NCBI GenBank assembly: GCA_037147375.1
Contig: JBAWVI010000013.1
Coordinates: forward strand, 1 to 14,917
Reading direction: 5' to 3'
Length of the DNA: 14,917 nt
From: an archaeon
GTDB lineage: Archaea > Iainarchaeota > Iainarchaeia > Iainarchaeales > CSSED10-239
Shown here: positions 1-12,033 of the stretch, piece after piece
Numbering within the stretch: the stretch's first letter is position 1
Layout of the letters: every line of letters begins with the position of its first letter
Notes under the pieces: model-generated
Database searches by the model: none
What the model saw: only the letters and a program-made list of their open reading frames with translations
Told to the model about the DNA's origin: nothing
Translations under genes and position numbers: made by a program

Positions 1-305
1 CAACCATAACACCAAATGCAACTCCAGTTCAAGCAATTACACAAACAAGTGCAAAGATTGCTTTCGATTCAAATGAATCAGGATATGCACACGTACATTA
101 TGGATTAGATGCTAACTATGGTATGATAACGCCTGATTCAGCAGTAGTTGCTGATGTAGATAAAAATATCCAATTATCAAGTCTTACATGTGGACGTGTG
201 TACCATTATATAATCTCCGCAAGAGATACATCAAATAATGAAGCAAGTACAAGTGATGCAAACTTTACAACAAGTGCTTGTACTCCTGGTGACACAACAC
301 CACCA
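1..305 (+). repeat. Intragenic long direct repeat, copy 1 (type-A module DNA)
   Basis: Hand alignment of nt 1-300 against 595-894 gives about 29 mismatches in 300 nt. The first 55 nt are identical. The offset is exactly 594 nt (198 codons). Confidence 0.9.
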
Positions 306-3014
306 GCAGTTTCAAATATTGTTGTTACTCCTGCACAAACAACAGCTTCTGTAGCATTCGATTCAAATGAAGCAGGTACTGCAAAAATTGGATATGGTTT
401 AACAGTAACTCATGGGTCAGTTACAAGTTATCAAACAATGATTTCAGGATCTAATGCAATAGTTATTACAGGTCTTACTTGTGAAACATTATACCATTAT
501 TCAGTTTATGCAAAAGATGGATCAAATAATGAAAGCGTTTCAACAGATGCAAATTTCATAACAGAAGATTGTACTCCTGAGGATACATTAGCACCAACCA
601 TAACACCAAATGCAACTCCAGTTCAAGCAATTACACAAACAAGTGCAAAAATTGCTTTCGATTCAAATGAATCAGGATATGCACATGTACATTATGGATT
701 GGATTCAAGCTATGGTATGGTAACACCAGATTCAGCAGTAGTTGCTGATGCAGATAAAAATATCCAATTATCAAGTCTTACATGTGGAAGTATATATCAC
801 TATATAATCTCTGCAACAGATGCAGCAGGTAATGAAGCAAGTACAAGTGATGCAAACTTCGAAACAGCTGGTTGTACACCTGGTGATACAACACCTCCTG
901 AATTTACAATACTTCAACCATCAACAATTCAAACTGCTGGAGATGTAAATATTGTTGTTGAAGCAACTGATGAAACAGCATTTGATACAACATATGTAAA
1001 TAATGTTGTTATTTTTACTGTTGACGATGTTAATAAAATATCAACTTTAACAACTACTGGAAGTACTGCAACAAACTTAAAGATACAACTAACAACAAGT
1101 TTAGTTGCAGGAGAATATGAAGTTGTTGTAAAAATTAAGGATAGTGCAGGAAACTTTAATCAAGAAACATTTAATATTGTTGTTGAAGCCGCAGGTGACA
1201 CAACATTACCTACAATTGATATAAACACAATTAACACAACTTCACAAACAGCAACAATTGAAGCTGATGTTAATGATAACGTAAGCGAATGGTTAGATGT
1301 TTATGCATATGTATATAACGCTGATACAAATGCTTTAATGGTTTCACCTACAAGAGCTTATAGAGCTGGAACAGATATTTCATATCTTATATCTGATCTA
1401 GACGCAAACACAGACTTTAACGTTACAATTTACGTTAAAGATGCTGCTGCAAATATAGGAAATGATTTAGGTACATTTACTACACAAATAAGTACAGATG
1501 ATGTTACAGTACCAACAGTAGATATAAATGTAACAGATATTGCATCAGATGGTGCAACAATAAATGCAATAATCGATGATGATTCAAATGGTTTATTAGA
1601 AGTTTGGTTAGAATATACTGAAGTTGGACATTCAGGTACATATGTTGAAAATCCAGTATATTTTGATTCAAATTCAAATATTTCAATGGATCTTGGTAAC
1701 TTAGATGCAAACACAGACTATAATGTTACATTAAAAGTTAAGGATGCATCTGGAAATATAGGAAGCGATTCAAATGTATTTACAACACTTGTAGATACAA
1801 CTGATGTAAATGAACCTGTTATCTCTGATGTTTCTGTTACTAAACATCAAACAACAGCTGATATAAATTTCACTTCTGATGAAGCTGGTAATGCAAAGAT
1901 TGTATATGGTTTAAGTTCAACTTACGGATCTTCTACAAGTTATCAAACAATGAGTGCAGGATCTAATGAGATTACTATTACAGGACTTACATGTAACACA
2001 GAATACCATTATTTAATTAATGCAAGAGATGCATCAAATAATGAAAGAATTACAGGTGATGCAAATTTCACAACAAGTATTTGTACTGCAAGGGTTACAC
2101 AAGCACCCGTAATTTCAAGTGTTCTTGTTATTGTAGGACAAACAACAACAGATATAAATTTCACTTCAAATGAAGCAGGTACTGCAAAGATCGGATATGG
2201 TTTAACTGCAACACATGGGTCTCTTACAAGTTATCAAACAATGATTTTAGGAACTAACAGTATAGTTCTTACAGGACTTGCATGTAATACATTATACCAT
2301 TACATAATCTATGCAAAAGATGCATCACCTAATGCAAATGAAAGCGTTTCAACAGATGCAAATTTCATAACAGGTACATGTGCAGACACAACAGTTCCTC
2401 TTGTTATTCAATCTGGTCCTTCTGGAATTGTAACAAACAATAATCCAACATTATTTGTAAAGCTTGAAGGTATTGATAATAATTCATCAACTACTTGTAA
2501 GTACAGTACTTCTGCATTTTCATTTGCAACAGAAGGTACAGTAATGACTTGGATGTCAGCAACATCAAGATTTGATGTTAATTTAACTGGATTAACAGAT
2601 GGTACTCAGACATATAATGTAATATGTAAAGATGTTACAGGAAATCAAATGACTGCATACCCAATATCCTTTAATGTGAATACAACTGGTAACTTTGACT
2701 ATACACAAGCACTAAACAAAAATTGGAATACATTATGGTTACCACCTACATTAGCTGAAGATGATAGCAATACAACAATTGGTCATGTTGTTGGTTATAC
2801 TTCATCTGATTATGGATATCTTAACCATTGGTTATCAGCAACAAGTAATTGGGAAACAATCTATCACTATGATGGAACTAACTGGCTTGTTCAATATAGA
2901 GGAGGAATCAATAACGGAATTGGAACTCTAACAGATATGAACGTAGCTTTACAAAATCCATTCTGGATTGATATGAATGTAGCAGATAGATTCCAACTTG
3001 ATTTAGTTGGTTAA
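1..3014 (+). CDS. Giant secreted/cell-surface modular repeat protein (FN3/Ig-like beta-sandwich array), 5'-truncated by the window edge
   Basis: The frame of ORF 123..3014 stays open back to nt 3. The upstream codons (TITPNATPVQAITQTSAKIAFDSNESGYAHVHYGLDANYG) reproduce the module that starts again at nt 597, so the listed ATG at 123 is internal. At least 9 tandem modules of about 95-100 aa are present. Type A occurs twice. Type B occurs three times with motif GYGL..(T)(H/Y)GS.TSYQTM..G.N.I.(I/L)TGL.C.T.YHY.I.A.D.S.NE....DANF.T..C, which resembles FN3 / purple-acid-phosphatase-N domains. One Ig-like module follows. Type D occurs twice (LDANTD[FY]NVT..VKDA.GNIG). A further module precedes a Trp-rich C-terminal domain (NWNTLWLP...YHYDGTNWL...NPFWIDM). 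The TAA stop at 3012-3014 is followed by a hairpin terminator. Confidence 0.85.
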   Translation, partial: TITPNATPVQAITQTSAKIAFDSNESGYAHVHYGLDANYGMITPDSAVVADVDKNIQLSSLTCGRVYHYIISARDTSNNEASTSDANFTTSACTPGDTTPPAVSNIVVTPAQTTASVAFDSNEAGTAKIGYGLTVTHGSVTSYQTMISGSNAIVITGLTCETLYHYSVYAKDGSNNESVSTDANFITEDCTPEDTLAPTITPNATPVQAITQTSAKIAFDSNESGYAHVHYGLDSSYGMVTPDSAVVADADKNIQLSSLTCGSIYHYIISATDAAGNEASTSDANFETAGCTPGDTTPPEFTILQPSTIQTAGDVNIVVEATDETAFDTTYVNNVVIFTVDDVNKISTLTTTGSTATNLKIQLTTSLVAGEYEVVVKIKDSAGNFNQETFNIVVEAAGDTTLPTIDINTINTTSQTATIEADVNDNVSEWLDVYAYVYNADTNALMVSPTRAYRAGTDISYLISDLDANTDFNVTIYVKDAAANIGNDLGTFTTQISTDDVTVPTVDINVTDIASDGATINAIIDDDSNGLLEVWLEYTEVGHSGTYVENPVYFDSNSNISMDLGNLDANTDYNVTLKVKDASGNIGSDSNVFTTLVDTTDVNEPVISDVSVTKHQTTADINFTSDEAGNAKIVYGLSSTYGSSTSYQTMSAGSNEITITGLTCNTEYHYLINARDASNNERITGDANFTTSICTARVTQAPVISSVLVIVGQTTTDINFTSNEAGTAKIGYGLTATHGSLTSYQTMILGTNSIVLTGLACNTLYHYIIYAKDASPNANESVSTDANFITGTCADTTVPLVIQSGPSGIVTNNNPTLFVKLEGIDNNSSTTCKYSTSAFSFATEGTVMTWMSATSRFDVNLTGLTDGTQTYNVICKDVTGNQMTAYPISFNVNTTGNFDYTQALNKNWNTLWLPPTLAEDDSNTTIGHVVGYTSSDYGYLNHWLSATSNWETIYHYDGTNWLVQYRGGINNGIGTLTDMNVALQNPFWIDMNVADRFQLDLVG
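595..899 (+). repeat. Intragenic long direct repeat, copy 2 (type-A module DNA)
   Basis: Same alignment as for copy 1. Type-B modules (306-596, 1818-2108, 2109-2399) also share long nucleotide-identical runs, for example caaatgaagcaggtactgcaaa and gaaagcgtttcaacagatgcaaatttcataacag. Confidence 0.9.
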
Positions 3015-3080: not shown

Positions 3081-4421
3081 ATGAAAAAGTATTTTATAGT
3101 ATTAATTTCACTAATTTTCTTTATATCTTCTGTTTTTGCAACACCAGGCGATTGGAAGGGTATTGTAGATATTAATGGTAGTGAACCTGCAATAGGAACA
3201 GTAGTTTCTGTATATTCTGGAAGCACAAGTCTTGCAACCACAACAACTCCTACAACCGAAGCAGGTGCAATTGCTTATGATTCTAATGGATTTTATATTT
3301 TAGTTTTTGAAACTACCAATAGTGCAGCTTTAAGTTTTAGAGTTTGTGGAATAGAAGCAGAAACAAGTACTTTTAGTTCAGGCACTCATGATTTTAATAT
3401 TTCAGCTAGTTTACAAACAAGTGGAACAACAGGTTGTACTTGTTCAGGTGTTTGTTCAGGTGGTTATTGTGTAAACCCAGGAACAACAGGAGTATGTTCT
3501 TCAAATACATATTATTGTGATAGTGATGGAACATGTGAATCTACATATGGAGAAACAACTTCAAATTGTTCACATGATTGTTCATCAAGTGGCGGTGGAA
3601 GTTCAGGTAGTGGTACAGGATCTGGAACAGGTACTGGTACAGGAACTGGAACAGGCACAGGAACTGATACAAATACAGGAACTGGAACAGGTACTGGAAC
3701 TGGAACAACTACTTTAATAACTGGTGCTGAAAGAGATAACTTATTATCTCAAGCAGATATTAATAGTCTTTTCGGAGCAGGCGTAATAGAAGCTAACTTA
3801 ACTGTTAATTCTTTATATTCAGAAACAAATGTATTAACTTCTGAAGAAGTAAATACATTAACAGAAAATCTTAGTCCAGAATATCAGAATCTTGTTAATG
3901 GCTTAATAGCAAGTCATTCAAATGAAAATGTTCAAGTTACAACTCACTTACAATCTTATGTAGTTACAGATACTTTAACTGGAGTTTCACAAATTGTAAG
4001 TAGAATATCAATAACAATTACTGCTTTAGATGATCTTGGACAAGTTACATATATTGAAGAAATTCCAAAAACAATAGCAGCAAATATAGCTGAACTTACA
4101 TTTAATATCCCTCCAACACAGATATTGAATGCAGATCCTGTAGTATTATTTACTTTTAATAACCTTGCAAGAGGAGAAACAAGAGAAATAACATACATGG
4201 TTAATAAAAACGTACAGACCTTACAAAATAACAACTATTTTGCAGCTGGTACACTTGTAGTTACAACACCAGGCACAACACCACCAATAACAGATACACC
4301 ACCAACTACTCCACCAAAGAGTAATATGTGGTTATATGTTGTAGTAATACTTTTAGTTATTTTGTTAGTAGCTGGTTCAATCCTATATTTAAACAAAAAG
4401 AAACAACCAAAAGGATTATAA
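3081..4421 (+). CDS. Membrane-anchored surface protein: signal peptide, Cys-rich module, (Gly-Thr)n linker, Pro/Thr stalk, C-terminal TM anchor
   Basis: The ATG has GGGGTG (3069-3074) 6 nt upstream. The signal peptide is MKKYFIVLISLIFFISSVFA. The Cys-rich block reads CTCSGVCSGGYC..GVCSSNTYYCDSDGTCE...NCSHDC. A GSGTGSGT(GT)n run follows, then the stalk TTPGTTPPITDTPPTTPP. The TM helix MWLYVVVILLVILLVAGSILYL is followed by the basic tail NKKKQPKGL. Confidence 0.85.
   Translation: MKKYFIVLISLIFFISSVFATPGDWKGIVDINGSEPAIGTVVSVYSGSTSLATTTTPTTEAGAIAYDSNGFYILVFETTNSAALSFRVCGIEAETSTFSSGTHDFNISASLQTSGTTGCTCSGVCSGGYCVNPGTTGVCSSNTYYCDSDGTCESTYGETTSNCSHDCSSSGGGSSGSGTGSGTGTGTGTGTGTGTDTNTGTGTGTGTGTTTLITGAERDNLLSQADINSLFGAGVIEANLTVNSLYSETNVLTSEEVNTLTENLSPEYQNLVNGLIASHSNENVQVTTHLQSYVVTDTLTGVSQIVSRISITITALDDLGQVTYIEEIPKTIAANIAELTFNIPPTQILNADPVVLFTFNNLARGETREITYMVNKNVQTLQNNNYFAAGTLVVTTPGTTPPITDTPPTTPPKSNMWLYVVVILLVILLVAGSILYLNKKKQPKGL
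3606..3713 (+). repeat. Imperfect hexanucleotide (ggw-acw)n microsatellite encoding a (Gly-Thr/Ser)n linker
   Basis: Codon by codon the region reads ggt agt ggt aca gga tct gga aca ggt act ggt aca gga act gga aca ggc aca gga act gat aca aat aca gga act gga aca ggt act gga act gga aca act act. Confidence 0.9.
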
Positions 4422-4466
4422 AAGAAGATCTTAATCATATCTTCTTTTTCTTTTTTTATTTTTTTC
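4421..4466 (+). terminator. Intrinsic-type terminator after the anchored surface-protein gene
   Basis: A 9-bp stem, aaagaagat (4421-4429) / atcttcttt (4439-4447), is followed by a long T tract (ttc tttttttatttttttc). Confidence 0.6.
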
Positions 4467-4521
4467 TAATCTTCCTTGGACGTAAGTTTCTGTAATATTA
4501 TTAAATTACTTGATTATTTTG

Positions 4522-4554
4522 GACATTAAAGTATTATACTCGTTACTCCAAAAT
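4522..4554 (+). repeat. Direct repeat DR1, left copy (33 bp perfect; about 48 bp imperfect from about 4507)
   Basis: gacattaaagtattatactcgttactccaaaat is identical to 6157-6189. The upstream flanks are also related (tacttgattattttg versus tcacttgttaatttca). Confidence 0.95.
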
Positions 4555-4563
4555 AACACTATT

Positions 4564-4571
4564 TTTAAATA
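4564..4571 (+). promoter_or_regulatory. Candidate archaeal-type TATA box (TTTAAATA) for the ATPase gene
   Basis: The box centre lies about 24-25 nt upstream of ATG 4592. No Shine-Dalgarno motif lies between, which fits a leaderless transcript. The call holds only if the host is archaeal. Confidence 0.45.
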
Positions 4572-4591
4572 TATCTTACTATGTTATATGT

Positions 4592-6130
4592 ATGATAGCA
4601 GATAAAAAATTTGTTAATAGAGAGAAGGAATTACAGTTCCTAAATAAACTATATAAAAATAATAAATCAGATTTATTTATACTTTATGGAAGAAGGAGAA
4701 TAGGTAAAACCCAATTAACTTTAGAATTTTTAAAAAATAAGAAAGGCACATATTATATGTGTAGTGAGGAAGGGGATTTAATAAATATTAAAAGCTTTCA
4801 AAAGGAATTATCAAAAAATATTGATAATGAATTTAATACTTTAAAAATAGATAATTGGTATGATTTGTTTTCCATATTTTTTAAGTTATATACTAAAAAA
4901 GAAAAATTAATAATAATTATTGACGAGTTTCCTTATTTGATTAAAAAAAACCCAGCAATTCCATCTATTTTTCAAAAATTATGGGATGAATTATTAATTA
5001 ATAAAAATATATTTTTAATTTTAACTGGGTCATCAGTCTCAATTATGGAAAAAAAAGTATTAAATGTTAAAAGTCCATTATATGGGAGAAGAACTGCACA
5101 ATGGGATTTAGGACCAATTCCATTTAAGCACATTTCTTCTTTTTTACCAAATCACAATTTAATTGATTTGTATAAAATATATTTTGTTTTTGGTGGTATT
5201 CCTGCCTATTTACAAAAATTAAACAAAGGGATAAGTAAGATAAATGGGATACCCATTTCTGAAAAAAGTAAGATAAATGGGATACCAATTTCTAACAAAA
5301 GTAAAATAAATGGGATTTCTATATTTGGGGACTCATTTGAAACGAGTGTAATTGAACAAATATTTACTAAGGGTAATTTTTTAAATCAAGAAGGTAATCT
5401 TCTTTTAAATTATGAATTTTCAGAAACAACAAATTATAAACTTATTTTAAGTGCAATCTCACAAGGTAATTTAAAACAAAAAGAAATAGTTGATTTCACA
5501 CATCTTGATTATTCATTAGTTTCTAAATATTTATCTGTTTTGAAAAATATATCTATAATAACAGAAGAAATCCCAGTAACTGAAAGTAAAAGATTTAAAG
5601 GTAGATTATATAAAATAAAAGATAATTATTTACAATTTTGGTTTAGATATTTATTTTCTGATTTATCATATGTTGAATCACATGAACCAGAAGAAATATA
5701 TAATTTTTATAAAACGGATATGGATGCTTATTTTGGATATAAATTTGAAGATCTAATTAAAGAATTATTTACAAATTATGAATTACCCACCAAAAATAAA
5801 TATAATTTGTTTGGTAGAGTTTGGGGTAAAATGCCATTAAAATATATTGTTGCTAATAATAAGTCAACATATGAGATTGATATTGTTGGTATTGATAGTA
5901 TTACAAAAAAGAACATTCTTTTTTGTGAAGTTAAATGGAAAGATAATGTAGATGCAAGTATAATTGCAAAAGATCTTATTTTAAAATCTAAATATATTAA
6001 ATGGGGAATAGATAATAGATCTGAAGAATTTATTATTATTGCAAAAAGCTATTCTAATAAAATAAGCCAAGTTGATGATGTTAAATTTACTTGTTTTGAT
6101 TTAAAAGATATTAATACTTTTCTTAAATAA
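4592..6130 (+). CDS. AAA-type ATPase of the Arch_ATPase (PF01637-like) family with a DUF234-like PD-(D/E)xK nuclease-fold C-terminus
   Basis: Walker A is LYGRRRIGKTQL (GRRRIGKT = 4688-4711). Walker B is LIIIIDEFPYL. LILTGS and GGIPAYL motifs are present. The C-terminal YEIDIVGID...LFCEVKWK matches the D...E.K core. The gene contains an in-frame 33-nt tandem repeat. Confidence 0.8.
   Translation: MIADKKFVNREKELQFLNKLYKNNKSDLFILYGRRRIGKTQLTLEFLKNKKGTYYMCSEEGDLINIKSFQKELSKNIDNEFNTLKIDNWYDLFSIFFKLYTKKEKLIIIIDEFPYLIKKNPAIPSIFQKLWDELLINKNIFLILTGSSVSIMEKKVLNVKSPLYGRRTAQWDLGPIPFKHISSFLPNHNLIDLYKIYFVFGGIPAYLQKLNKGISKINGIPISEKSKINGIPISNKSKINGISIFGDSFETSVIEQIFTKGNFLNQEGNLLLNYEFSETTNYKLILSAISQGNLKQKEIVDFTHLDYSLVSKYLSVLKNISIITEEIPVTESKRFKGRLYKIKDNYLQFWFRYLFSDLSYVESHEPEEIYNFYKTDMDAYFGYKFEDLIKELFTNYELPTKNKYNLFGRVWGKMPLKYIVANNKSTYEIDIVGIDSITKKNILFCEVKWKDNVDASIIAKDLILKSKYIKWGIDNRSEEFIIIAKSYSNKISQVDDVKFTCFDLKDINTFLK
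5234..5326 (+). repeat. In-frame 33-nt tandem repeat, about 2.8 copies (SKINGIPISEK / SKINGIPISNK / SKINGISIF)
   Basis: The units are agtaagataaatgggatacccatttctgaaaaa (5234-5266), agtaagataaatgggataccaatttctaacaaa (5267-5299) and agtaaaataaatgggatttctatattt (5300-). Confidence 0.95.
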
Positions 6131-6156
6131 TATCTTTTAATCACTTGTTAATTTCA

Positions 6157-6189
6157 GACATTAAAGTATTATACTCGTTACTCCAAAAT
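6157..6189 (+). repeat. Direct repeat DR1, right copy
   Basis: Identical 33-mer to 4522-4554. It lies 27 nt after the ATPase stop codon. Confidence 0.95.
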
Positions 6190-6227
6190 CTAGTTGATTT
6201 TAAGATTTAGATTTGTGACAACCAGTT

Positions 6228-6245
6228 TAATTATGCTTGGCCAGG
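6228..6245 (+). promoter_or_regulatory. GC-rich shared motif DR2, copy 1 (taattATGCTTGGCCAgg)
   Basis: 16 of 18 positions, including an exact 11-mer atgcttggcca, recur at 7356-7373. It stands out as a GC-rich island in AT-rich spacer, about 60-70 nt upstream of the next gene start. Confidence 0.6.
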
Positions 6246-6258
6246 AGCCTAGGAAAGC

Positions 6259-6266
6259 TTTAAATA
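6259..6266 (+). promoter_or_regulatory. Candidate TATA box (TTTAAATA) for the RhuM-family gene
   Basis: It is preceded by the purine-rich ggaaagc (BRE-like). The expected TSS is near 6288-6292, and GGTG at 6294-6297 lies 6 nt before ATG 6304. Confidence 0.4.
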
Positions 6267-6303
6267 CAGATTTTAAGACATTATTTATAGATTGGTGGAT
6301 TTT

Positions 6304-7332
6304 ATGGATAATAAATTAACTATAAGAAATAGCACAACTGAATTTTTAATATTTACTTCTCAAGCTGGAGAAGATGGTATTGAAGTTAAATTCGAAGATG
6401 AAAATGTTTGGTTAAGTCAAAAGATGATGTCCAAATTATTTGATGTTCAAATAAATACAATCAATGAACATCTAAAACATATTTTTTTTTCAAATGAATT
6501 AGATGAAATTTCAACTATTCGGAATTTCCGAATAGTTCAAAAAGAGGGTAATAGGAATATAACTAGAAAAATTGATTTTTATAATCTAGATGCAATAATC
6601 TCTGTAGGATACAGAATAAATTCCCAAAAGGCAACTAGATTTAGAATCTGGGCTACAAAAATCCTAAAAGAATTTGCAATAAAAGGATATGTTCTTGATT
6701 CTGAAAGATTAAAGAATGGTACTTTCCTAAATAGAAAATATTTTGATGATTTATTATTAGAGATTAGAGAAATTAGAGCTAGTGAAAGACAATTCTATCA
6801 AAAGATAACAGATATTTATTCAACCTCAATTGATTATAATAAAGATGATGAATTAACAAGAGAGTTTTTCTCAGTAGTTCAAAATAAATTGCATTTTGCA
6901 GTTCATGGAAATACTGCTGCAGAACTAATTATGACTAGAGCAAATAAAGAAAAAGATCATATGGGTTTAACAACTTGGAAGAAATCACCCAATGGGAAAA
7001 TAATAAAAAGTGATGTTAGTATTGCTAAGAATTATTTAAATAAGAAAGAAATTGAATCATTAAATAGAATTGTAACAATGTATCTTGATTATGCAGAAGA
7101 TCAAGCAAAAAGAGGTGTGCCAGTAACTATGAGTGATTGGTCAAAAAAGCTTAATGCATTTTTAAAATTTAATGATAGAGATATTTTGAATAGCCCTGGC
7201 AAAGTAACAAATGAGATTGCAAAACATTTTGCAGAAAATGAATTTGAAAAATATAGACTAGTTCAAGATAAACTTTTTGAATCAGATTTTGATAAAGAAA
7301 CAAAAAAACTATTATCAACCAAAAAGAAATAA
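6304..7332 (+). CDS. rhuM: RhuM-family protein (Virulence_RhuM-like)
   Basis: The core FYNLDAIISVGYRINSQKATRFRIWATKILKEFAIKGYVLDSERLK and the N-terminal ..VWLSQKMMSKLFDV..NTINEHLKHIF are characteristic of the RhuM family. The ORF track starts at TTG 6292. I prefer ATG 6304 because GGTG lies 6 nt upstream, the same pattern seen at other genes here. Confidence 0.8.
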   Translation: MDNKLTIRNSTTEFLIFTSQAGEDGIEVKFEDENVWLSQKMMSKLFDVQINTINEHLKHIFFSNELDEISTIRNFRIVQKEGNRNITRKIDFYNLDAIISVGYRINSQKATRFRIWATKILKEFAIKGYVLDSERLKNGTFLNRKYFDDLLLEIREIRASERQFYQKITDIYSTSIDYNKDDELTREFFSVVQNKLHFAVHGNTAAELIMTRANKEKDHMGLTTWKKSPNGKIIKSDVSIAKNYLNKKEIESLNRIVTMYLDYAEDQAKRGVPVTMSDWSKKLNAFLKFNDRDILNSPGKVTNEIAKHFAENEFEKYRLVQDKLFESDFDKETKKLLSTKKK

Positions 7333-7355
7333 TTTTTTTCTATGTAGTTTATATC

Positions 7356-7373
7356 TAATGATGCTTGGCCACG
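7356..7373 (+). promoter_or_regulatory. GC-rich shared motif DR2, copy 2 (taatgATGCTTGGCCAcg)
   Basis: See 6228-6245. It lies 24 nt after the RhuM stop and 57 nt before ATG 7430. It is followed by a tccc-GAAA-ggga hairpin (7379-7390) and the palindrome ggatatatatcc (7388-7399). Confidence 0.6.
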
Positions 7374-7429
7374 CACCCTCCCGAAAGGGATATATATCCA
7401 TAAAACTATAGTATATTTGGCGATTAACT

Positions 7430-8269
7430 ATGATTGATCTTATATCTGATAGAAAAATTTTAGATAAGTTTATTATTGAATTTACAAATGTATTAGAAAA
7501 ATATTCAAAATATGTAGTTGTTTCTGGTTTTGTTGCAATCTCAAATGCAAGATCAAGAGGAACAGAAGATATTGATCTTATTGTTGAAGAAATGTCTTTT
7601 ACTACTTTTAATAACTTTTTCAAAGATATATATAATTTAAATTTTGAATGTATTCAATCTGATGATGTAAATGAAATATATAATAATTATTTATTACATA
7701 AAGAGATAATTAGATTTGCATATAAAGATACATTAATTCCAAATATTGAATTTAAGTTTCCTAAAAACAAAATTGATGAATATACTTTATCAAAAAGAGT
7801 TAAACTTCCATTAACTGGACTAGATATATATTTTGCAACAATTGAATCAACTATTGCATATAAAGAACATTATCTTTGTGGAGAAAAAGATTATGAAGAT
7901 GCATATCATCTTAGAAAACTATACGTAGATACTATTAATTTTGAAGAGATTGAATTAATTAAAAGAATGATAGATAAATATCTTTATAATAAAGTAGAAG
8001 ACAAGGGAAAATTAAAAGAAAATATTGAACCAATAATTTATTTTACAAAGAGAGATAAATCTCATTTAGAATTTATTGATAAATGGGTTGAATTTGTTAA
8101 AACTCATCCTTATGAAGAATGGAAAAAGCAGCATTCTGATTTTTTAGATTCTCAAATTATTCATTCTATGGAATTCTATCAAAGATTATTAAAAGAACCA
8201 GATGGCGCAAAGAAAATAAGAAGTATTATGGGCTGGAACAAAAAGACTCCTTATTGGTTTGAAAAATAA
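7430..8269 (+). CDS. Pol-beta-superfamily nucleotidyltransferase (AbiEii / DUF2204-like) with an uncharacterised Trp-rich C-terminal extension
   Basis: The NTase signature hG[GS]-x13-DxD reads VVVSGFVAISNARSRGTEDIDLIV. A downstream acidic strand NIEFKF is present. The helix IAYKEHYLCGEKDYEDAYHL resembles the (K/R)xKDxxD helix of this NTase group. The last 90 aa or so (WVEFVKTHPYEEWKKQHSDFLDSQ...) are unrecognised. Confidence 0.6.
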   Translation: MIDLISDRKILDKFIIEFTNVLEKYSKYVVVSGFVAISNARSRGTEDIDLIVEEMSFTTFNNFFKDIYNLNFECIQSDDVNEIYNNYLLHKEIIRFAYKDTLIPNIEFKFPKNKIDEYTLSKRVKLPLTGLDIYFATIESTIAYKEHYLCGEKDYEDAYHLRKLYVDTINFEEIELIKRMIDKYLYNKVEDKGKLKENIEPIIYFTKRDKSHLEFIDKWVEFVKTHPYEEWKKQHSDFLDSQIIHSMEFYQRLLKEPDGAKKIRSIMGWNKKTPYWFEK

Positions 8270-8393
8270 TCATCCTAGTTTCTATATTCTTCAATTTCTG
8301 TAATCATTATATTTTTAAATAAAACGGCTTATCTATATATACCTAATTATATTTTATTATCAGCCTACTAAATTTCGAGAGTGAAAACAAGTT

Positions 8394-9545
8394 ATGCCTA
8401 CAAAAATCAGAAGAAAAGTATACAAGGATGAATCCTGGTCTGATACTATTATCTCTGATATTAAGAAAGGAGAAGTTGTAGACATTACAAAAATATTACC
8501 TCTTGTAACTCCAGGCACAGAACTTAGAAAGGGCCTTGATGAAATCCTAAATGGTAACCTTGGAGCTTTAATTGTTCTTGGAATAAACGATGAACTTAAA
8601 TCCCTTCTTCAAGGTGGAATTAATCTAGATGTTCCTTATGGTTCATCAAGATTATTTGAACTTGCAAAAATGGATGGAGCTATTGTTGTATCTAATGATT
8701 TAAAAAAAATAGTTTCAGCAAACACTCATCTTATGCCAAACAAAGAAATACCTTCATCAGAAACAGGAATAAGGCACAGAAGTGCAGAACAAACTGCAAG
8801 GCAAACAGGCTTACCAGTTATTGCAATCTCACACAGGAGAAGCATTATTTCTTTATTTTATAGAGATCAAAAGTATGTTCTTCAAGACCTAAGATTATTA
8901 CTTGTTAAATCAAACAATAGTCTAAACAACCTAAAAGACTATAGAATAAGAATAGATTCAGATCTTAATTACTTAATACATAATGAAATAAACAGTTTAT
9001 CAACTGTCTCAGAAGATGCACTTTCAATTATTCAAAAACTACTTTATTTCTTTAAGCACTCAAGCGAGCTTGATATGCTTGTTATTGAGCTTGGAGAACA
9101 AGGAACAGACATCATGCAAAGCTTGTATGAAATCAATTATGGAATAGAAGAAACCTTAGCTATGCTTATCTTAGACTACTCAAGCAAGGAAATGAGTAAG
9201 CAAGAAGCTCTTACACAAGTTGAGAACCTAAAGAAGATGGGTTTAAGGATGATATCTGATACTGATAAGCTATCAGAATTTGTATCTTTAGGCTCAAGTA
9301 GTACAGTTCCATCACTTGACTTCCATTATCCAAGAGGATATAGGATATTATCAAAGATACCGAGATTATCTCCTAAGTTAATTGAAGACATGATAAAAAA
9401 GTACAAATGCATATCAAATATGCTTAATTTAGATGCAGAAGAACTTTCAAAAGATCTAAGTATTAATCTAGTTCAAGCAAAGTACATAGTAAGTCAGTTA
9501 TCTAGTTTATCAGAGAACATAACAACAGATTTCTTTGATATTTAG
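8394..9545 (+). CDS. disA: DNA integrity scanning protein DisA (diadenylate cyclase, c-di-AMP synthase)
   Basis: The DAC domain motifs are present: PGTELRKGLDEIL..NLGALIVLG, LAKMDGAIVVS and ETGIRHRSAEQTARQTGLPVIAISHRRS. The PRGYRILSKIPRLSP linker/C-terminal signature is typical of DisA. The length is also DisA-like (383 aa). Confidence 0.85.
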   Translation: MPTKIRRKVYKDESWSDTIISDIKKGEVVDITKILPLVTPGTELRKGLDEILNGNLGALIVLGINDELKSLLQGGINLDVPYGSSRLFELAKMDGAIVVSNDLKKIVSANTHLMPNKEIPSSETGIRHRSAEQTARQTGLPVIAISHRRSIISLFYRDQKYVLQDLRLLLVKSNNSLNNLKDYRIRIDSDLNYLIHNEINSLSTVSEDALSIIQKLLYFFKHSSELDMLVIELGEQGTDIMQSLYEINYGIEETLAMLILDYSSKEMSKQEALTQVENLKKMGLRMISDTDKLSEFVSLGSSSTVPSLDFHYPRGYRILSKIPRLSPKLIEDMIKKYKCISNMLNLDAEELSKDLSINLVQAKYIVSQLSSLSENITTDFFDI

Positions 9546-9646: not shown

Positions 9647-9706
9647 GTAGAACACCAATAAATATCAGCAAAGACTGAACATCGAATATAAAAAAGTGAT
9701 TTTAGA

Positions 9707-9898
9707 ATGGAAGGAACAGTAAAGTTTTATAACTTCAAGAAAAGATTTGGTTTCATAACAGGAGAAGACGGTAAAGACTACTTCGTACATGAAACAGGAA
9801 TTATACAAAAGGGTTCTGTAAGAGACGGAGCTAAAGTAACATTTGAAGTTGTAACAGATGATAGAGGAGCAAAAGCAACAAACGTTAACGTAGTTTAA
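9707..9898 (+). CDS. Cold-shock domain protein (CspA family, 63 aa)
   Basis: The sequence GTVKFYNFKKRFGFIT..DGKDYFVHETGI...G..V.FEV..DDRGAKATNV contains RNP1-like (K)RFGFI and RNP2-like YFVHE motifs. The size is typical. GTGAT lies 6 nt upstream of the ATG. Confidence 0.85.
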   Translation: MEGTVKFYNFKKRFGFITGEDGKDYFVHETGIIQKGSVRDGAKVTFEVVTDDRGAKATNVNVV

Positions 9899-10016: not shown

Positions 10017-10733
10017 CTATAGCTTGTTTTTCTTATTTTTTCTTTCTTGTTCTTCAAGTATATCAAGCTGAAGCTTTTGTATTTCAAGTAGTCTTTGCCA
10101 TTGATCTCTAGTTAAGTGATCAAGCTTTTCATGTATGTGTCTTATCTCAAGCTCAGCTTTAAGATTAATCTTGTAATCGTTTTCAGATCTTAGTCTATCC
10201 TTTTGTTCCTTCCTGTTTTGGCTCATCATAATGATTGGAGCTTGAATAGCAGCAAGACAAGATAAGATTAAGTTTAAAAGAATGAATGGATAAGGATCAT
10301 ATGGTTTAGCCATCATAAGACTTGTATTAATTATTATCCAGATAACTAAAACAATAAAGAAAGAACTAATAAATCCCCAAGAACCTCCAAAGGTTGCGAC
10401 CTTATCAGCTATTCTTTGTCCTTTTGAAAGTCCGGTTTCATCTAAGCTAAGTTCCTTAACAAGAGATTCTTGATCAATCATGCTTTTTACAACTTGCTTA
10501 TCAATCTTAGATATTTCTCCTTTTTCTTTCTTTAAGAGATCTTCCATGTATTGATATCTATATTTTTTATATTCTTCTCTTGAAATATAATTCGTATTAT
10601 TAAATTCAGGATATTTCTTTTTAATAAGTTCAATTACTTGTAAATTAATTAAATCATAAGGAACTGCATCTATTATCTTAATAGGTTTTTTAGTAATATA
10701 GCAAATTACATTTACTTCTTTTTTATTTTCCAT
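10017..10733 (-). CDS. DUF1003-family integral membrane protein
   Basis: GSWGFISSFFIVLVIWIIIN (TM1) and PYPFILLNLILSCLAAIQAPIIMMSQNRKEQKDRLRSENDYKINLKAELEI..IHEKLD match the conserved DUF1003 core, including the two-TM layout and the coiled-coil tail. Confidence 0.75.
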   Translation of the reverse strand: MENKKEVNVICYITKKPIKIIDAVPYDLINLQVIELIKKKYPEFNNTNYISREEYKKYRYQYMEDLLKKEKGEISKIDKQVVKSMIDQESLVKELSLDETGLSKGQRIADKVATFGGSWGFISSFFIVLVIWIIINTSLMMAKPYDPYPFILLNLILSCLAAIQAPIIMMSQNRKEQKDRLRSENDYKINLKAELEIRHIHEKLDHLTRDQWQRLLEIQKLQLDILEEQERKNKKNKL

Positions 10734-10846: not shown

Positions 10847-11548
10847 ATGAAAATGAAAATAAAAAGTGTAGTTAATGTATTTAAGAAACCTAAGGAATCT
10901 TTGGTTAAGAAGAAACCAGTTATAAAACCAAAAAGAAAAGAGTTAATTAAAAAGTTTTTTGGGTTTGAGTTTAATATTAAAAAAGAAGTTAAAAAACCAA
11001 CAGATCTTTTAAAAAAGGAAAAGCATATAATGGATAGGCTTGTTCATGTTAAAGAAAAATGTCAAAACTTAAACAACATGCATAATACATACAAGTTTAT
11101 AAGAACATTAAAAGAAGAAGGAATAACTGGAAAAAACATAAGAGAATACACAAATTTATATCCAGAGCATATTTATAGTAAGCTTGGAAATATGGAACCA
11201 AAGGATAAAATAAATATTTTACATCTAATGGGCTTTGATCTTGGTAAAATGGAAACTATTAAACCATTTGATTTAGAATATAATCAGCACATGCCAAGCT
11301 TACGAACACAATTATATAAAAAGTTTGGTTCTAATAAAGAAGCATTAAAAGAATTAAATAAATTTTATAGTTTAAGACATATTGGAAAAGGTTTTCCAAT
11401 AAGAGAAATGCTTGAAACATTTCCAATTGATGCTATGCTTAGAGAATTTAGTTATGAGGATATAAGAAATAGGATTAGTAGTGTAGATGGAAGACTTCAT
11501 ACTGATGAAGGAGTTAGAAAGTTTGCAGAATTAATTTATAGAAAGTAA
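10847..11548 (+). CDS. Hypothetical Lys-rich protein (ORFan by eye)
   Basis: A long ORF with coding-like composition. The ORF track starts at TTG 10838 and the first ATG is 10847. The tatatattta box at 10811-10820 lies about 27-36 nt upstream. No recognisable motif was found. Confidence 0.55.
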   Translation: MKMKIKSVVNVFKKPKESLVKKKPVIKPKRKELIKKFFGFEFNIKKEVKKPTDLLKKEKHIMDRLVHVKEKCQNLNNMHNTYKFIRTLKEEGITGKNIREYTNLYPEHIYSKLGNMEPKDKINILHLMGFDLGKMETIKPFDLEYNQHMPSLRTQLYKKFGSNKEALKELNKFYSLRHIGKGFPIREMLETFPIDAMLREFSYEDIRNRISSVDGRLHTDEGVRKFAELIYRK

Positions 11549-11549
11549 A

Positions 11550-11882
11550 CTATTTTTTATTTTTGCAATTTTTACATCTCTTAAGTAAATCAGTATAACT
11601 TTTCTTTTTATTAACTTTATGATTTAAGTGGCCCTTAATGGTTTTAGATGAAAAACTAATTTTTGGAAGAGGGCTTTTATGATTGAAACCTCTGTTCTTC
11701 ATTTCCTTTACAATTTCTTCATGTCTTTTGTAAATGCTTTTAGGTTCTAGTAGATCATTTTTTATATATCCATCAATAGATATTCCTTTTTTAATAGTTC
11801 CAACAAACATATGTATTTCAACATGTTCCCCAAGAAGATGCTTATCGCACATCTTATTTGTAGGTGTCATCCACATTCTCAT
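11550..11882 (-). CDS. Small DenV/Pyr_excise-like protein (putative pyrimidine-dimer DNA glycosylase family), tentative
   Basis: The N-terminus MRMWMTPTNKMCDKHLLGEHVEIHMFVG resembles the MR(L/M)W..P..L....LLGEH.E.H signature of short pyrimidine-dimer-glycosylase-like proteins. The C-terminus CKNCKNKK is basic and CxxC-containing. The call rests on memory of the motif only. Confidence 0.4.
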   Translation of the reverse strand: MRMWMTPTNKMCDKHLLGEHVEIHMFVGTIKKGISIDGYIKNDLLEPKSIYKRHEEIVKEMKNRGFNHKSPLPKISFSSKTIKGHLNHKVNKKKSYTDLLKRCKNCKNKK

Positions 11883-11976
11883 GTTAATCAGTTTTAAATA
11901 ATTGGGATTAAAAATTAGAAAGAGCCTCTAGAGCTGATTCTAAATTTAGTTATTAGCTAGTTTTAAATTTATCTAC

Positions 11977-12022
11977 CCCCCACATATACTAAGAAAGCAT
12001 CTATTTATATACTTTGTGGGGG
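11977..12022 (+). promoter_or_regulatory. Fic promoter region: TTTATATA box (12004-12011) bracketed by the GC-rich inverted repeat CCCCCACA / TGTGGGGG
   Basis: The arms at 11977-11984 and 12015-12022 are perfect reverse complements. The TATA centre lies 26.5 nt upstream of ATG 12034. Confidence 0.45.
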
Positions 12023-12033
12023 TGTATATCTAT

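What the first reader, a model, noticed from the sequence alone, without database searches (positions are those of the whole stretch)
4467..8393. Low-GC three-gene accessory island: DUF234-type ATPase/nuclease, RhuM and Pol-beta NTase, a candidate uncharacterised conflict/defence module
Three same-strand genes sit between a surface-protein operon that ends in a strong terminator and disA. They are an Arch_ATPase with a PD-(D/E)xK-like DUF234 tail, a RhuM-family protein and an AbiEii/DUF2204-like nucleotidyltransferase. By eye this stretch is clearly more AT-rich than its neighbours: a spot count of one 60-nt line gave 16/60 G+C at 4921-4980, against 25/60 at 301-360. Each gene has its own TATA-like element, and repeats bracket the first two genes. 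From established knowledge, AbiEii-type NTases are toxins of type IV TA/abortive-infection systems, and NTPase+nuclease fusions are a common architecture among anti-phage systems. From memory, and unverified here, RhuM genes are often embedded in R-M or defence islands. I do not know of this trio as a named system. The functional link between the three genes is inference only.
Basis: partly seen in the sequence, partly recalled or inferred. Interest (0 to 1): 0.7.

Follow-up and report, generated by a model that had tools for sequence, protein, structure and literature searches.

The report
Defence-gene hot spot, not one system
The three genes upstream of disA in this DPANN archaeon are three separate gene cassettes that come and go independently, not one three-gene defence system, and the third is a fusion of a toxin-like nucleotidyltransferase with a small partner protein that most archaea encode as a separate gene.

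Summary
Three same-strand genes lie between a surface-protein operon and disA. They are G1 (ATPase_2+DUF234, PADLOC candidate PDC-S27), G2 (RhuM, PDC-S05) and G3 (a Pol-beta-fold nucleotidyltransferase). Direct repeats bracket G1 and G2.

The low G+C is real (0.241). However, it comes from codon positions 1 and 2. GC3 matches the neighbouring surface-protein genes, so it is not evidence of foreign origin.

None of 80 species loci with a G3 relative carries G1 or RhuM within 10 kb.

Close relatives instead show independent cassettes:
- One population lacks RhuM exactly between the 16-nt repeats and carries a 45%-identical NTase.
- Another has RhuM elsewhere, upstream of disA, among other PADLOC candidates (PDC-S02, PDC-S13).
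- Forterrea has only the G3 homologue.

G3 is the new element. Its N domain resembles the tRNA-modifying toxin MenT1 in fold and motif I. Its C domain is the small protein DUF8150. In 71 of 79 species loci this protein is a separate downstream gene, usually overlapping the NTase gene by 4 nt.

Whether G3 is a fused toxin-antitoxin or a housekeeping RNA enzyme is unresolved.

The parts
4422..4470 (+). End of the surface-protein operon: a 10-bp A/U-rich hairpin followed by a long T-run
   Evidence: Sequence read. Fold: -9.2 kcal/mol, z -0.84. It is plausible as an archaeal oligo-T terminator but is not statistically exceptional.
4493..4554 (+). Copy 1 of the 62-nt direct repeat (D2), just upstream of the G1 TATA box. 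It contains the palindrome TTTTGGA-N23-TCCAAAA.
   Evidence: 33-nt perfect core, 0 expected by chance. The hairpin is -10.1 kcal/mol, z -3.25. About 80 nt upstream of G1 is conserved upstream of G1 homologues in L086 and L089.
4592..6130 (+). G1: AAA+-type ATPase (ATPase_2) + weak winged-helix match + DUF234 with a PD-(D/E)xK-like motif; PADLOC candidate PDC-S27
   Evidence: Pfam. PADLOC 4.3e-46 and a full-length match at 3.3e-25. Walker A at residues 33-40, Walker B at 107-112, D430...E446-V-K448. More than 7,500 homologues, mostly archaeal.
5233..5331 (+). In-frame 33-nt tandem repeat (3 copies) inside G1, encoding KSKINGIPIS-type peptide repeats. It accounts for the 512 aa length versus about 477-479 aa in most of the closest homologues.
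   Evidence: (family D1). Also present in L092 (512 aa).
6128..6189 (+). Copy 2 of the 62-nt direct repeat (D2). It starts at the G1 stop codon.
6228..6243 (+). Copy 1 of the 16-nt direct repeat TAATTATGCTTGGCCA. This is the left boundary of the RhuM cassette.
   Evidence: Homology to L092 ends here. Homology to the L095 RhuM cassette begins at 6230.
6304..7332 (+). G2: RhuM-family protein (PADLOC PDC-S05), with its own BRE/TATA-like element (6253-6266) and an SD-like GGTGGA (6295-6300)
   Evidence: Pfam 1.1e-111. PADLOC 8.1e-155. 67-76% identical to proteins of many bacterial phyla and of Woesearchaeota. Absent in L092. Located elsewhere in L095.
7356..7371 (+). Copy 2 of the 16-nt direct repeat TAATGATGCTTGGCCA. 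This is the right boundary of the RhuM cassette.
7362..7429 (+). Shared 5' module of G3: TGCTTGGCCA-N3-ACCCTCCCGAAAGGGATATATAT...TTGGCGA-N5-ATG (BRE/TATA-like plus SD-like)
   Evidence: The same module precedes the NTase of L092. In L095 it sits just 5' of, or close upstream of, six accessory genes, including two PDC-S02 genes, one PDC-S13 gene and ORF6N-type genes.
7430..7990 (+). G3 N domain (residues 1-187): minimal Pol-beta nucleotidyltransferase with a MenT1-like fold
   Evidence: Invariant S32-G33, T45-E46-D47-I48-D49, E107 and K109. AF2 model. Foldseek versus MenT1 8an5/8an4: E 6e-6 to 1e-5, prob 1.0, TMt 0.57-0.61. The profile aligns motif I with MenT1 T39-R40-D41-V42-D43.
7994..8050 (+). 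G3 linker (residues 189-207), predicted to be disordered. It includes RDKSH, which corresponds to the N-terminus (MRDK[ST]H) of the free small partner.
   Evidence: pLDDT below 50. Alignment of the free partners.
8051..8269 (+). G3 C domain (residues 208-279): three-helix domain equivalent to the separate 62-75 aa protein DUF8150 (PF26477)
   Evidence: tblastn of the C part finds it adjacent to the NTase in 84 of 85 loci. Of 79 species loci, 71 are split and 8 fused. PF26477 is recorded on the free small ORFs.
8394..9545 (+). disA: the conserved right-hand flank of the variable stretch (not part of it)
   Evidence: NCBIfam DisA 7.8e-100. The disA-CSD-DUF1003 block is syntenic and 83-87% identical at DNA level in L095.

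Best explanation
The stretch 4467-8393 is a variable-gene hot spot directly upstream of disA. The organism is a Diapherotrites/Iainarchaeota-type DPANN archaeon, and its closest named relative is Candidatus Forterrea. The hot spot holds three autonomous cassettes, each with its own promoter-like element. They are not a co-functional trio.

(1) G1 is a PDC-S27-type protein: a Walker ATPase, a weak winged-helix match and a DUF234 domain with a PD-(D/E)xK-like motif. Inferred action: NTP-dependent recognition and cutting of foreign nucleic acid. A 62-nt direct repeat brackets it.

(2) G2 is a RhuM/PDC-S05 single-gene module. It has an N-terminal domain like those of ORF6N-type proteins and a RhuM domain of unknown chemistry that has been proposed to be a toxin. 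It is an 1,128-nt insertion/deletion unit bounded by a 16-nt direct repeat.

(3) G3 fuses a MenT1-like minimal nucleotidyltransferase to its cognate small partner, DUF8150. Inferred action: the NTase adds nucleotides to RNA or tRNA 3' ends, and the partner domain regulates it in cis. This would be a fused toxin-antitoxin-like arrangement.

Shown here: the gene families, the repeats, the presence/absence and position polymorphisms, the lack of co-occurrence, and the fusion.

Inferred: defence function, biochemical activities, and recombination at the shared repeats as the exchange mechanism.
For: Families and motifs.

No co-occurrence. In 80 species loci (1.09 Mb) around G3 relatives there are 0 RhuM hits and 1 distant ATPase hit.

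Contexts of G1 homologues:
- L086 (78% identical): RhuM lies 5.8 kb away, split in two, with three genes (two of them surface-protein-like) in between.
- L089 (65%) and L094 (72%): no RhuM.
- L092 (94.5%): G1 is followed directly by an NTase gene only 45% identical to G3. RhuM is missing exactly between the 16-nt repeats.

Related genomes:
- L095 is a close relative (DisA 88%, CSD 97% identical). A 90%-identical RhuM cassette (window 6230-7396) lies next to an MBL hydrolase gene, 6 kb upstream of disA. It is followed by two PDC-S02 genes, one PDC-S13 gene and other accessory genes. G1 and G3 are absent.
- Forterrea has the G3 homologue plus a viperin-like fragment upstream of disA, without G1 or G2.

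Repeats. Direct repeats also flank G1 homologues in L086 (about 290 nt), L089 (42 nt) and L092 (33 nt).

RhuM is 67-76% identical across bacterial phyla and archaea, which indicates horizontal transfer.

G3 fusion. MenT1-like fold and motif I.

Literature. DPANN genomes are enriched in single-gene PADLOC candidates, and PDC-S27 is described as an ATPase fused to a PD-(D/E)xK domain (PMC12988326). One PDC-S05 gene protected E. coli against T7, T5 and T4 (10.1101/2024.09.26.614923). RhuM has been proposed as a toxin (PMC3710099).
Against: - None of the three proteins has been tested. In the one published trial, the PDC-S27 representative was not among the four protective candidates (10.1101/2024.09.26.614923).
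- GC3 of G1-G3 is host-like, so composition gives no sign of recent acquisition.
- The left flank of the hot spot is not conserved. It is a surface-protein operon here but GluRS/MBL hydrolase in L095 and Forterrea. Only the disA side supports calling it the same locus.
- The direction of the RhuM polymorphism (insertion or deletion) cannot be told.
- The G3 family is unusually conserved: median 60% pairwise identity and 31 invariant residues. In three lineages examined in detail its neighbours are housekeeping genes: NMD3, Trm112, EF-1beta, an RNA ligase, HIT. This fits a housekeeping RNA enzyme at least as well as a toxin.
- No G3 relatives were found on viral contigs.
Confidence: 0.7

Rival explanations
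1. One reading: ATPase/nuclease, RhuM and NTase form one three-component defence system that works together.
For: The genes are adjacent and on the same strand in the window and its near-identical contigs L003 and L093. All three are defence-type families.
Against: There is no RhuM, and only one distant ATPase hit (L081, 2.3e-12), near a G3 relative in 80 species loci. The 94.5%-identical G1 in L092 lacks RhuM and has a different NTase. RhuM occurs without G1 and G3 in L095. G3 occurs without G1 and G2 in Forterrea. Each gene has its own promoter-like element, and the intergenic gaps are 97-173 nt.
Confidence: 0.04
2. G3 (NTase + DUF8150) is a housekeeping RNA- or tRNA-directed nucleotidyltransferase with a regulatory subunit, not a toxin or defence gene. 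Only G1 and G2 are conflict genes.
For: The family is highly conserved: median 60% identity and 31 invariant positions. Neighbours in Methanoperedens, Pacearchaeota and Micrarchaeota are housekeeping or RNA-related: RNA_lig_T4_1, Trm112, NMD3, EF-1beta, HIT, LysRS. There is no PADLOC model beyond a weak 0.0048 hit. There are no viral copies. In Forterrea it sits next to GluRS and an MBL hydrolase.
Against: Distribution is patchy: 340 of 185,579 species genomes. Identity across phyla reaches 88%. The allele is swapped for a 45%-identical one at the same site in L092. The gene is absent in the close relative L095. It shares its 5' module with PDC-S02 and PDC-S13 genes. The best structural match is a toxin, MenT1. 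A 4-nt-overlapping small partner is a typical toxin-antitoxin layout.
Confidence: 0.3
3. G3 is a small-molecule nucleotidyltransferase, an antibiotic- or metabolite-modifying enzyme like ANT(2'')-Ia.
For: Foldseek matches ANT(2'')-Ia with TMt 0.57-0.58. One remote family member passes the Pfam Aminoglyc_resit threshold, 23.1 versus 21 bits.
Against: MenT1 scores better, E 6e-6 versus about 1e-2. The matched ANT(2'')-Ia PDB chains are single proteins of 174-185 residues, and, from my own knowledge (not tested here), that enzyme has no obligatory partner protein. Here the partner is present in 84 of 85 loci.
Confidence: 0.08
4. The hot spot is an integron-like cassette array. The shared TGCTTGGMCA...GGGATATA module and the D2 palindrome would be recombination sites used by a dedicated site-specific recombinase encoded elsewhere.
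For: The RhuM cassette boundaries coincide with the module in the window, L092 and L095. There are seven module copies in 19 kb of L095, all just 5' of or close upstream of accessory genes. Direct repeats bracket G1 in four lineages.
Against: No integrase or recombinase gene is present in the window or in L095. The module reads as an ordinary BRE/TATA promoter plus SD and has no exceptional fold. Homologous recombination between repeated promoters would suffice, and it is documented as a major force in Forterrea populations (PMC5905446). The repeats that flank G1 differ in sequence and length between lineages.
Confidence: 0.1

Closest known systems
PADLOC candidate PDC-S27 (ATPase_2 + DUF234, archaeal AAA+ ATPase fused to a PD-(D/E)xK domain)
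   Same: G1 matches the models (4.3e-46, and full length at 3.3e-25). It has both Pfam domains and intact Walker A, Walker B and D...ExK motifs. It is a single gene, and the family is abundant in archaea (PMC12988326).
   Different: G1 carries a lineage-specific 33-aa peptide repeat insert. The family is only a candidate. The one representative tested was not among the four reported as protective against T7, T5 and T4 (10.1101/2024.09.26.614923).
RhuM / PADLOC PDC-S05 single-gene candidate
   Same: Full-length match at 8.1e-155 and Pfam Virulence_RhuM at 1.1e-111. It behaves as a one-gene mobile unit. One PDC-S05 gene lowered plating of T7 and T5 about 1,000-fold (10.1101/2024.09.26.614923).
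   Different: Here it is in a DPANN archaeon rather than a bacterium, and it is not embedded in an R-M operon. The mechanism is unknown: there is no solved relative and the AF2 model was poor.
MenT1/MenA1 (Rv0078A/B) and the wider AbiEii/DUF1814 nucleotidyltransferase toxins
   Same: The G3 N domain has the same minimal NTase fold of about 190 residues (Foldseek prob 1.0, TMt about 0.6). Motif I includes the Thr-x-Asp-x-Asp that aligns with MenT1 T39/D41/D43. It pairs with a very small helical protein of 62-75 aa, compared with 68 aa for MenA1 (PMC10435456).
   Different: Sequence identity is only 12-15%. No member matches Pfam AbiEii above threshold. The partner, DUF8150, lies downstream with a 4-nt overlap rather than upstream. 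It gave no detectable sequence match to the 8an5 (MenAT1) entry, the only match being the toxin chain. Here it is fused in cis. Activity and toxicity are untested.
Fused toxin-antitoxin proteins (CapRelSJ46, EzeT) - recalled from my own knowledge
   Same: A toxin-type catalytic domain and its neutralising partner sit in one polypeptide, while relatives encode them as two genes.
   Different: The enzyme families are different. For G3, neither toxicity nor cis-inhibition has been shown. CapRel appears only as a weak fold hit (7ztb, E 0.06).
Defence islands / variable hot spots next to conserved genes
   Same: Different defence-type genes occupy the space upstream of the same core block (disA-CSD-DUF1003) in related genomes.
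   Different: The hot spot is very small and has no integrase or tRNA at the hot spot (the window's one tRNA gene, 12979-13050, lies beyond disA). The cassettes share a lineage-specific promoter-like module.

Membership tests
PDC-S27 (PADLOC) | Match to the PDC-S27 profile HMMs over the full length | tested here: met
   PDLC04984 at 4.3e-46. PDLC04985 at 3.3e-25 over residues 4-500.
PDC-S27 (PADLOC) | ATPase_2 domain with Walker A/B, plus a DUF234 PD-(D/E)xK-type domain | tested here: met
   Pfam 4.5e-29 and 2e-16. GRRRIGKT at 33-40, IIIIDE at 107-112, D430...E446-V-K448.
PDC-S27 (PADLOC) | Protection against viruses | not testable with these tools
   The family is only a candidate. One representative was tested in E. 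coli and was not among the four reported as protective (10.1101/2024.09.26.614923).
RhuM / PDC-S05 | Virulence_RhuM domain and a full-length PDC-S05 profile match | tested here: met
   Pfam 1.1e-111. PDLC04851 at 8.1e-155 over residues 5-343.
RhuM / PDC-S05 | Acts as a single-gene unit | tested here: met
   It occurs as a one-gene cassette in different places and is absent in a near relative. This shows genetic autonomy, not function.
AbiEii / MenT (DUF1814, PF08843) | Profile match above the Pfam threshold | tested here: not met
   0 of 30 family members. Only sub-threshold hits (E 0.03-0.09) in remote members.
AbiEii / MenT (DUF1814, PF08843) | NTase motif I hG[GS]x9-13Dh[DE]h, with the Ser/Thr two residues before the first Asp | tested here: met
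   S32-G33...T45-E46-D47-I48-D49 are invariant. They align to MenT1 T39-R40-D41-V42-D43.
AbiEii / MenT (DUF1814, PF08843) | MenT-like three-dimensional fold | tested here: met
   Foldseek versus 8an5_B/8an4_A: E 6e-6 to 1e-5, prob 1.0, TMt 0.57-0.61 over about 190 columns.
AbiEii / MenT (DUF1814, PF08843) | C-terminal motifs III/IV (MenT1 K137, D152) | not tested
   The candidates K145/E146, K153/D154 and D157 are invariant or nearly invariant. No residue-level structural superposition was available.
AbiEii / MenT (DUF1814, PF08843) | Cognate antitoxin encoded upstream (AbiEi/COG5340 or MenA1-type) | tested here: not met
   The conserved partner is downstream (DUF8150, 62-75 aa, mostly with a 4-nt overlap) and is unrelated in sequence.
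AbiEii / MenT (DUF1814, PF08843) | Growth-arresting tRNA nucleotidylation | not testable with these tools
   This needs expression and biochemistry.
DUF2204 (PF09970) | Profile match above the gathering score (20.3 bits) | tested here: not met
   12.7 bits, E 0.1, although it covers 172 of 181 profile positions. Only 1 of 30 members matches.
MNT-HEPN toxin-antitoxin pair | Partner is a HEPN domain with the Rx4-6H motif | tested here: not met
   The partner is 62-75 aa. It has no Pfam HEPN match, and its RDK[ST]H has only three residues between R and H.
Three-gene ATPase-RhuM-NTase system (as proposed) | Conserved co-occurrence of the three families | tested here: not met
   No RhuM hit and only one distant ATPase hit (L081, 2.3e-12) in the 80 species loci. 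Close relatives carry different subsets.
Fused toxin-antitoxin | The two domains exist as separate adjacent genes in relatives | tested here: met
   71 split and 8 fused among 79 species loci. Fused L013 is 94.7% identical to split L053, so fusion has recurred.
Fused toxin-antitoxin | Toxicity of the catalytic domain, neutralised by the partner domain | not testable with these tools

The most novel reading that the evidence does not exclude
The NTase + DUF8150 pair is a previously undescribed archaeal toxin-antitoxin or abortive-infection family. The toxin would be a MenT1-like tRNA 3'-end nucleotidyltransferase and the antitoxin a new 62-75 aa downstream protein. The pair is spread by horizontal transfer through DPANN, Altiarchaeota and Methanoperedens. 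In the window's lineage it has become a single self-inhibited polypeptide. In addition, the disA-proximal hot spot exchanges such one-gene cassettes by recombination at a shared promoter module of about 80 nt, which would amount to an integrase-free cassette array.
Probability: 0.3. Interest if true: 0.62.

Novelty: new variant of a known kind. Interest (0 to 1): 0.42.

Why it matters
DPANN archaea have tiny genomes and few CRISPR or R-M systems. They are reported to rely on compact single-gene defence candidates (PMC12988326). This window shows how such genes are organised in one lineage.

The layout is a short hot spot next to disA. One-gene cassettes (PDC-S27, RhuM, NTase) are gained, lost and swapped independently, often at short repeats that double as promoter elements.

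The analysis also pairs the Pfam domain of unknown function DUF8150 with a MenT1-like nucleotidyltransferase that has no Pfam family. I found this pair in 340 species genomes. Together with the repeated fusions, that gives a concrete and testable hypothesis for both proteins.

If the pair is a toxin-antitoxin, it extends the MenT/AbiEii mechanism into archaea with a new antitoxin type. If it is a housekeeping enzyme, it is an unrecognised RNA-modifying activity in small-genome archaea.

Tried and rejected
- Composition as evidence of foreign origin. Rejected: GC3 is host-like, and the contrast lies in codon positions 1 and 2.
- G3 as a core gene syntenic with disA. I considered this after seeing Forterrea. 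I dropped it once L095 (no G3) and L092 (a 45%-identical allele) were seen.
- Sequence-level placement of G3. Pfam, NCBIfam, PADLOC and PDB sequence searches gave nothing significant. Only structure and motif I place it.
- The small partner as HEPN or MenA1. There is no support.
- Viral origin. There are no G3 relatives and no 5'-module matches on IMG/VR contigs. The BFVD fold search gave only generic NTase hits.
- RNA elements. Rfam found only tRNA-Thr at 12979-13050. The G3 5' module has no exceptional fold.
- RhuM structure. The AF2 model was too poor to search (pLDDT 53.8, pTM 0.37; only residues 30-120 were confident), so no fold search was run.
- The sigma-70 promoter and intrinsic-terminator scan is uninformative for an archaeon. 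It found 35 sites against 36 expected.
- The literature search for DUF234 returned only unrelated DUF2345 (T6SS) papers.

Full report
WHAT IS THERE

The window is a complete 14,917-nt contig of an NCBI metagenome-assembled "archaeon" (P0241 is 100% identical and its contig length is 14917). It has 28% G+C.

On the + strand it encodes, in order:
- a 963-aa and a 446-aa surface protein (123-3014, 3081-4421);
- G1 (4592-6130);
- G2 (6304-7332; an alternative TTG start at 6292 lies just 5' of an SD-like GGTGGA at 6295-6300, which favours the ATG at 6304);
- G3 (7430-8269);
- disA (8394-9545; NCBIfam DisA 7.8e-100).

Downstream come a cold-shock protein, DUF1003, an unknown protein, a Pyr_excise glycosylase, a Fic protein, tRNA-Thr, another unknown protein and a permease.

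The closest genomes are Candidatus Forterrea multitransposorum and Candidatus Iainarchaeum MAGs, which are Diapherotrites-type DPANN (PMC5905446).

CHECK OF THE OBSERVATION

The family calls for G1 and G2 are confirmed.
- G1: ATPase_2 4.5e-29 and DUF234 2e-16.
- G2: RhuM 1.1e-111.
- In PADLOC they correspond to the single-gene candidates PDC-S27 (4.3e-46) and PDC-S05 (8.1e-155).
- G1 has intact Walker A and B motifs and a D430...E446-V-K448 nuclease-type motif.

G3 has no significant hit in Pfam, NCBIfam or PDB sequences. DUF2204 reaches only 12.7 bits.

G+C of 4467-8393 is 0.241, against 0.329 upstream and 0.278 downstream. GC3 of G1-G3 (0.10-0.14) equals that of the two surface genes (0.09-0.11). 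The contrast therefore reflects the Thr/Gly/Ala-rich surface proteins, not foreign codon usage.

The repeats are real.
- A 62-nt direct repeat with a perfect 33-nt core brackets G1 at 4493-4554 and 6128-6189. None is expected by chance.
- The 16-nt repeat TAAT[T/G]ATGCTTGGCCA brackets G2 at 6228-6243 and 7356-7371. The chance expectation is 0.03.

Each gene is preceded by a BRE/TATA-like box, read directly.

ARE THE THREE GENES ONE SYSTEM? NO.

I fetched 80 loci from 80 different species genomes that encode a G3 relative, with up to 10 kb on each side.
- tblastn with the window's proteins found G1 and G2 only in the window's own contigs.
- Profile HMMs built from 116 G1 and 120 RhuM homologues found 0 RhuM hits and one distant ATPase hit (44 bits) in 1.09 Mb.

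Among close G1 homologues the neighbours differ.
- L086 (78% identical) has a split RhuM 5.8 kb away, beyond three intervening genes, two of them surface-protein-like.
- L089 (65%) and L094 (72%) have no RhuM.

WHAT THE RELATIVES SHOW INSTEAD

A metagenome scan for the 22-mer core of the G1 repeat found two contigs.

L093 is the same arrangement as the window at 98.7% identity.

L092 carries G1 at 94.5% identity and then differs.
- Its sequence follows the window up to ATGCTTGGCCA (6243) and continues directly with the window's 7372 onward.
- RhuM is therefore missing as an exact 1,128-nt unit between the 16-nt repeats.
- The following NTase gene is only 45% identical to G3, although the sequence just upstream of it is conserved.

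L095 is a close relative (DisA 88%, CSD 97%, DUF1003 90% identical; 83-87% at DNA level).
- It carries a 90%-identical RhuM cassette whose homology spans the window's 6230-7396, that is, from repeat to repeat.
- The cassette sits at a different place: after an MBL hydrolase gene and 6 kb upstream of disA.
- It is followed by two unknown proteins, an ORF6N-HATPase protein, two DUF1016 nucleases (PDC-S02, 1e-124 and 1e-144) and a Bro-N protein (PDC-S13, 3e-125).
- G1 and G3 are absent.

Forterrea has GluRS, the MBL hydrolase, the G3 homologue (65%), a viperin-like radical-SAM fragment and other genes, then disA.

So the space upstream of the conserved disA-CSD-DUF1003 block holds different defence-type genes in each relative. 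One caveat applies: the left flank is not conserved between the window and L095 or Forterrea.

RhuM itself is 67-76% identical to proteins of Geobacteraceae, Dehalococcoidia, Bacteroidales, Parcubacteria and Woesearchaeota. This is the mark of a promiscuously transferred gene, and it agrees with PMC12988326.

REPEATS AND A SHARED 5' MODULE

The 16-nt repeat is part of a longer module: TGCTTGGMCA-N3-ACCCYCCCGAAAGGGATATA-N12-TATAATATATrTGGTGA-N5-8-ATG. It reads as an upstream motif, BRE/TATA, a short leader and an SD.
- It precedes G3 in the window and the NTase in L092.
- Seven copies occur in 19 kb of L095, just 5' of or close upstream of accessory genes. A diverged variant precedes RhuM.
- It is not found in front of disA, GluRS or the MBL hydrolase gene.
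- It is absent from viral contigs and has no exceptional RNA fold.

The 62-nt G1 repeat contains a palindrome (TTTTGGA-N23-TCCAAAA; hairpin z -3.25). It belongs to about 80 nt that are conserved upstream of G1 homologues in other lineages.

G1 homologues in L086, L089 and L092 are likewise bracketed by direct repeats of about 290, 42 and 33 nt, with different sequences.

I infer that the cassettes are exchanged by recombination at these repeats. Homologous recombination is documented as a major force in Forterrea populations (PMC5905446). A dedicated site-specific system is not excluded, but no recombinase gene is present.

G3 IS A FUSION

G3 relatives number 247 in the word-indexed search and 666 clusters (at 50% identity) in the exhaustive profile search. 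Nearly all named sources are archaeal: DPANN phyla, Altiarchaeota and Methanoperedens/Methanosarcinales. Most relatives are about 187 aa long and cover only residues 1-187 of G3.

Searching the two halves separately showed that the C part (residues 205-270) is encoded immediately downstream in 84 of 85 loci.
- In 71 of 79 species loci it is a separate 53-88-aa ORF (mostly 62-75 aa). In most of these the start overlaps the NTase stop by 4 nt.
- In 8 loci (the window's clade, a second clade and one Methanosarcinales contig) it is fused.
- A fused protein (L013) is 94.7% identical to a split one (L053), so fusion has recurred.
- The small protein is Pfam DUF8150 (PF26477). Its consensus is MRDK[ST]HxEQVERWAxYVRxNPxxWKxxxxxFIDSQIIMAxRFYxRL.

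The NTase has invariant S32-G33, T45-E46-D47-I48-D49, E107 and K109.

An AF2 model (pLDDT 83.4, pTM 0.81) shows an alpha/beta NTase domain, a disordered linker at 189-207 and a three-helix C domain.
- Its best PDB matches are the M. tuberculosis toxin MenT1 (E 6e-6 to 1e-5, prob 1.0, TMt 0.57-0.61).
- Next come MenT3/TglT, ANT(2'')-Ia and terminal uridylyltransferases.
- The family profile aligns motif I with MenT1 T39-R40-D41-V42-D43. T39 is the phospho-acceptor through which MenA1 silences MenT1, and D41 is catalytic (PMC11375011).

MenT1 adds cytidines to tRNA 3' ends and is blocked by a 68-aa antitoxin (PMC10435456).

No member of the G3 family reaches the Pfam thresholds for AbiEii or DUF2204. 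Remote members give sub-threshold hits to DUF2204, DUF6036 and AbiEii, and one passes Aminoglyc_resit.

HOW IT MOST LIKELY WORKS

G1 is inferred from its domains to be an NTP-driven sensor or motor with a PD-(D/E)xK nuclease effector that acts on nucleic acid, possibly autoregulated through its winged helix and the upstream palindrome.

G2 is inferred from the literature to have a DNA-binding N domain plus a RhuM toxin-like domain. One homologue gave a drop in plating of about 1,000-fold for T7 and T5 (10.1101/2024.09.26.614923).

G3 is inferred from fold, motif and partner architecture to be an RNA/tRNA 3'-end nucleotidyltransferase held in check by its DUF8150 domain in cis.

The main rival for G3 is a housekeeping RNA enzyme.
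- In favour: the family is unusually conserved (median 60% identity), and in the three split-type loci examined its neighbours are housekeeping or RNA-related genes.
- Against: patchy distribution, up to 88% identity across phyla, absence in L095, the allele swap in L092, and the 5' module it shares with PADLOC-candidate genes.

VERDICT

G1 and G2 are ordinary members of known candidate families. The new elements are the NTase-DUF8150 pair and its fusion, and the shared promoter-like module at the cassette boundaries.

Noticed in passing
window 7362-7429; L095 1474-1493(-), 10064, 11758, 12695, 13928, 15026; L092 298-345(-): A module of about 80 nt (TGCTTGGMCA-N3-ACCCYCCCGAAAGGGATATA...TATAATATATrTGGTGA-N5-8-ATG) recurs upstream of accessory or defence-type genes in three related genomes. 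It was not seen in front of disA, GluRS or the MBL hydrolase gene. It may be a shared promoter (a regulon) and/or a recombination substrate.
   Followed up: partly
L086 3388-3650 / 5226-5500; L089 7685-7726 / 9688-9728; L092; window 4493-4554 / 6128-6189: ATPase_2-DUF234 (G1) homologues in four lineages are each bracketed by direct repeats of 33 to about 290 nt, with a different sequence in each lineage. This suggests a recurrent insertion or duplication mechanism for this gene.
   Followed up: partly
window 5233-5331: A 33-nt in-frame tandem repeat (3 copies) inside G1 adds about 33 residues (KSKINGIPIS repeats) between the ATPase and winged-helix regions. It is present in this lineage and absent from most of the closest homologues (477-479 aa).
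   Followed up: no
window 12016-12918: A Fic-domain protein matches PADLOC PDC-S04 (1.3e-28) and SoFic (1.1e-26). It is a fourth single-gene defence candidate, 3.5 kb beyond disA, next to tRNA-Thr (12979-13050, - strand).
   Followed up: no
window 10017-10733 versus L004 3584-4048: In a near-identical contig from another sample (L004) the DUF1003 gene appears truncated. Only residues 1-155 align, and no gene was called there.
   Followed up: no
L098 4669-6527 (Methanoperedens): The split NTase-DUF8150 pair lies directly downstream of a T4-type RNA ligase gene and next to Trm112. This hints at an RNA-end-related role.
   Followed up: no
L008 (Forterrea) 11074-12115: Two adjacent ORFs (144 and 213 aa) downstream of the G3 homologue look like a split radical-SAM protein. 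The first matches PADLOC viperin models (pVip, 6.5e-20).
   Followed up: no
L094 2917-4352 and 16704-16986: Near a 72%-identical G1 homologue lie an AbiEii gene with an upstream 223-aa partner, a second AAA_14/DUF4143 ATPase and a DUF6036 NTase. This looks like another defence-type cluster next to surface-protein and T2SSE genes.
   Followed up: no
window 123-3014: The 963-aa surface protein is built of internally repeated domains of about 90-130 aa. It is only 52% identical to its counterparts in L086 and L092, while the neighbouring G1 is 78-94% identical, so the surface genes diverge fast.
   Followed up: no
window 11550-11882 (-): A T4 endonuclease V-type pyrimidine-dimer glycosylase (Pyr_excise, 3.8e-14) is present in this small-genome archaeon.
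   Followed up: no
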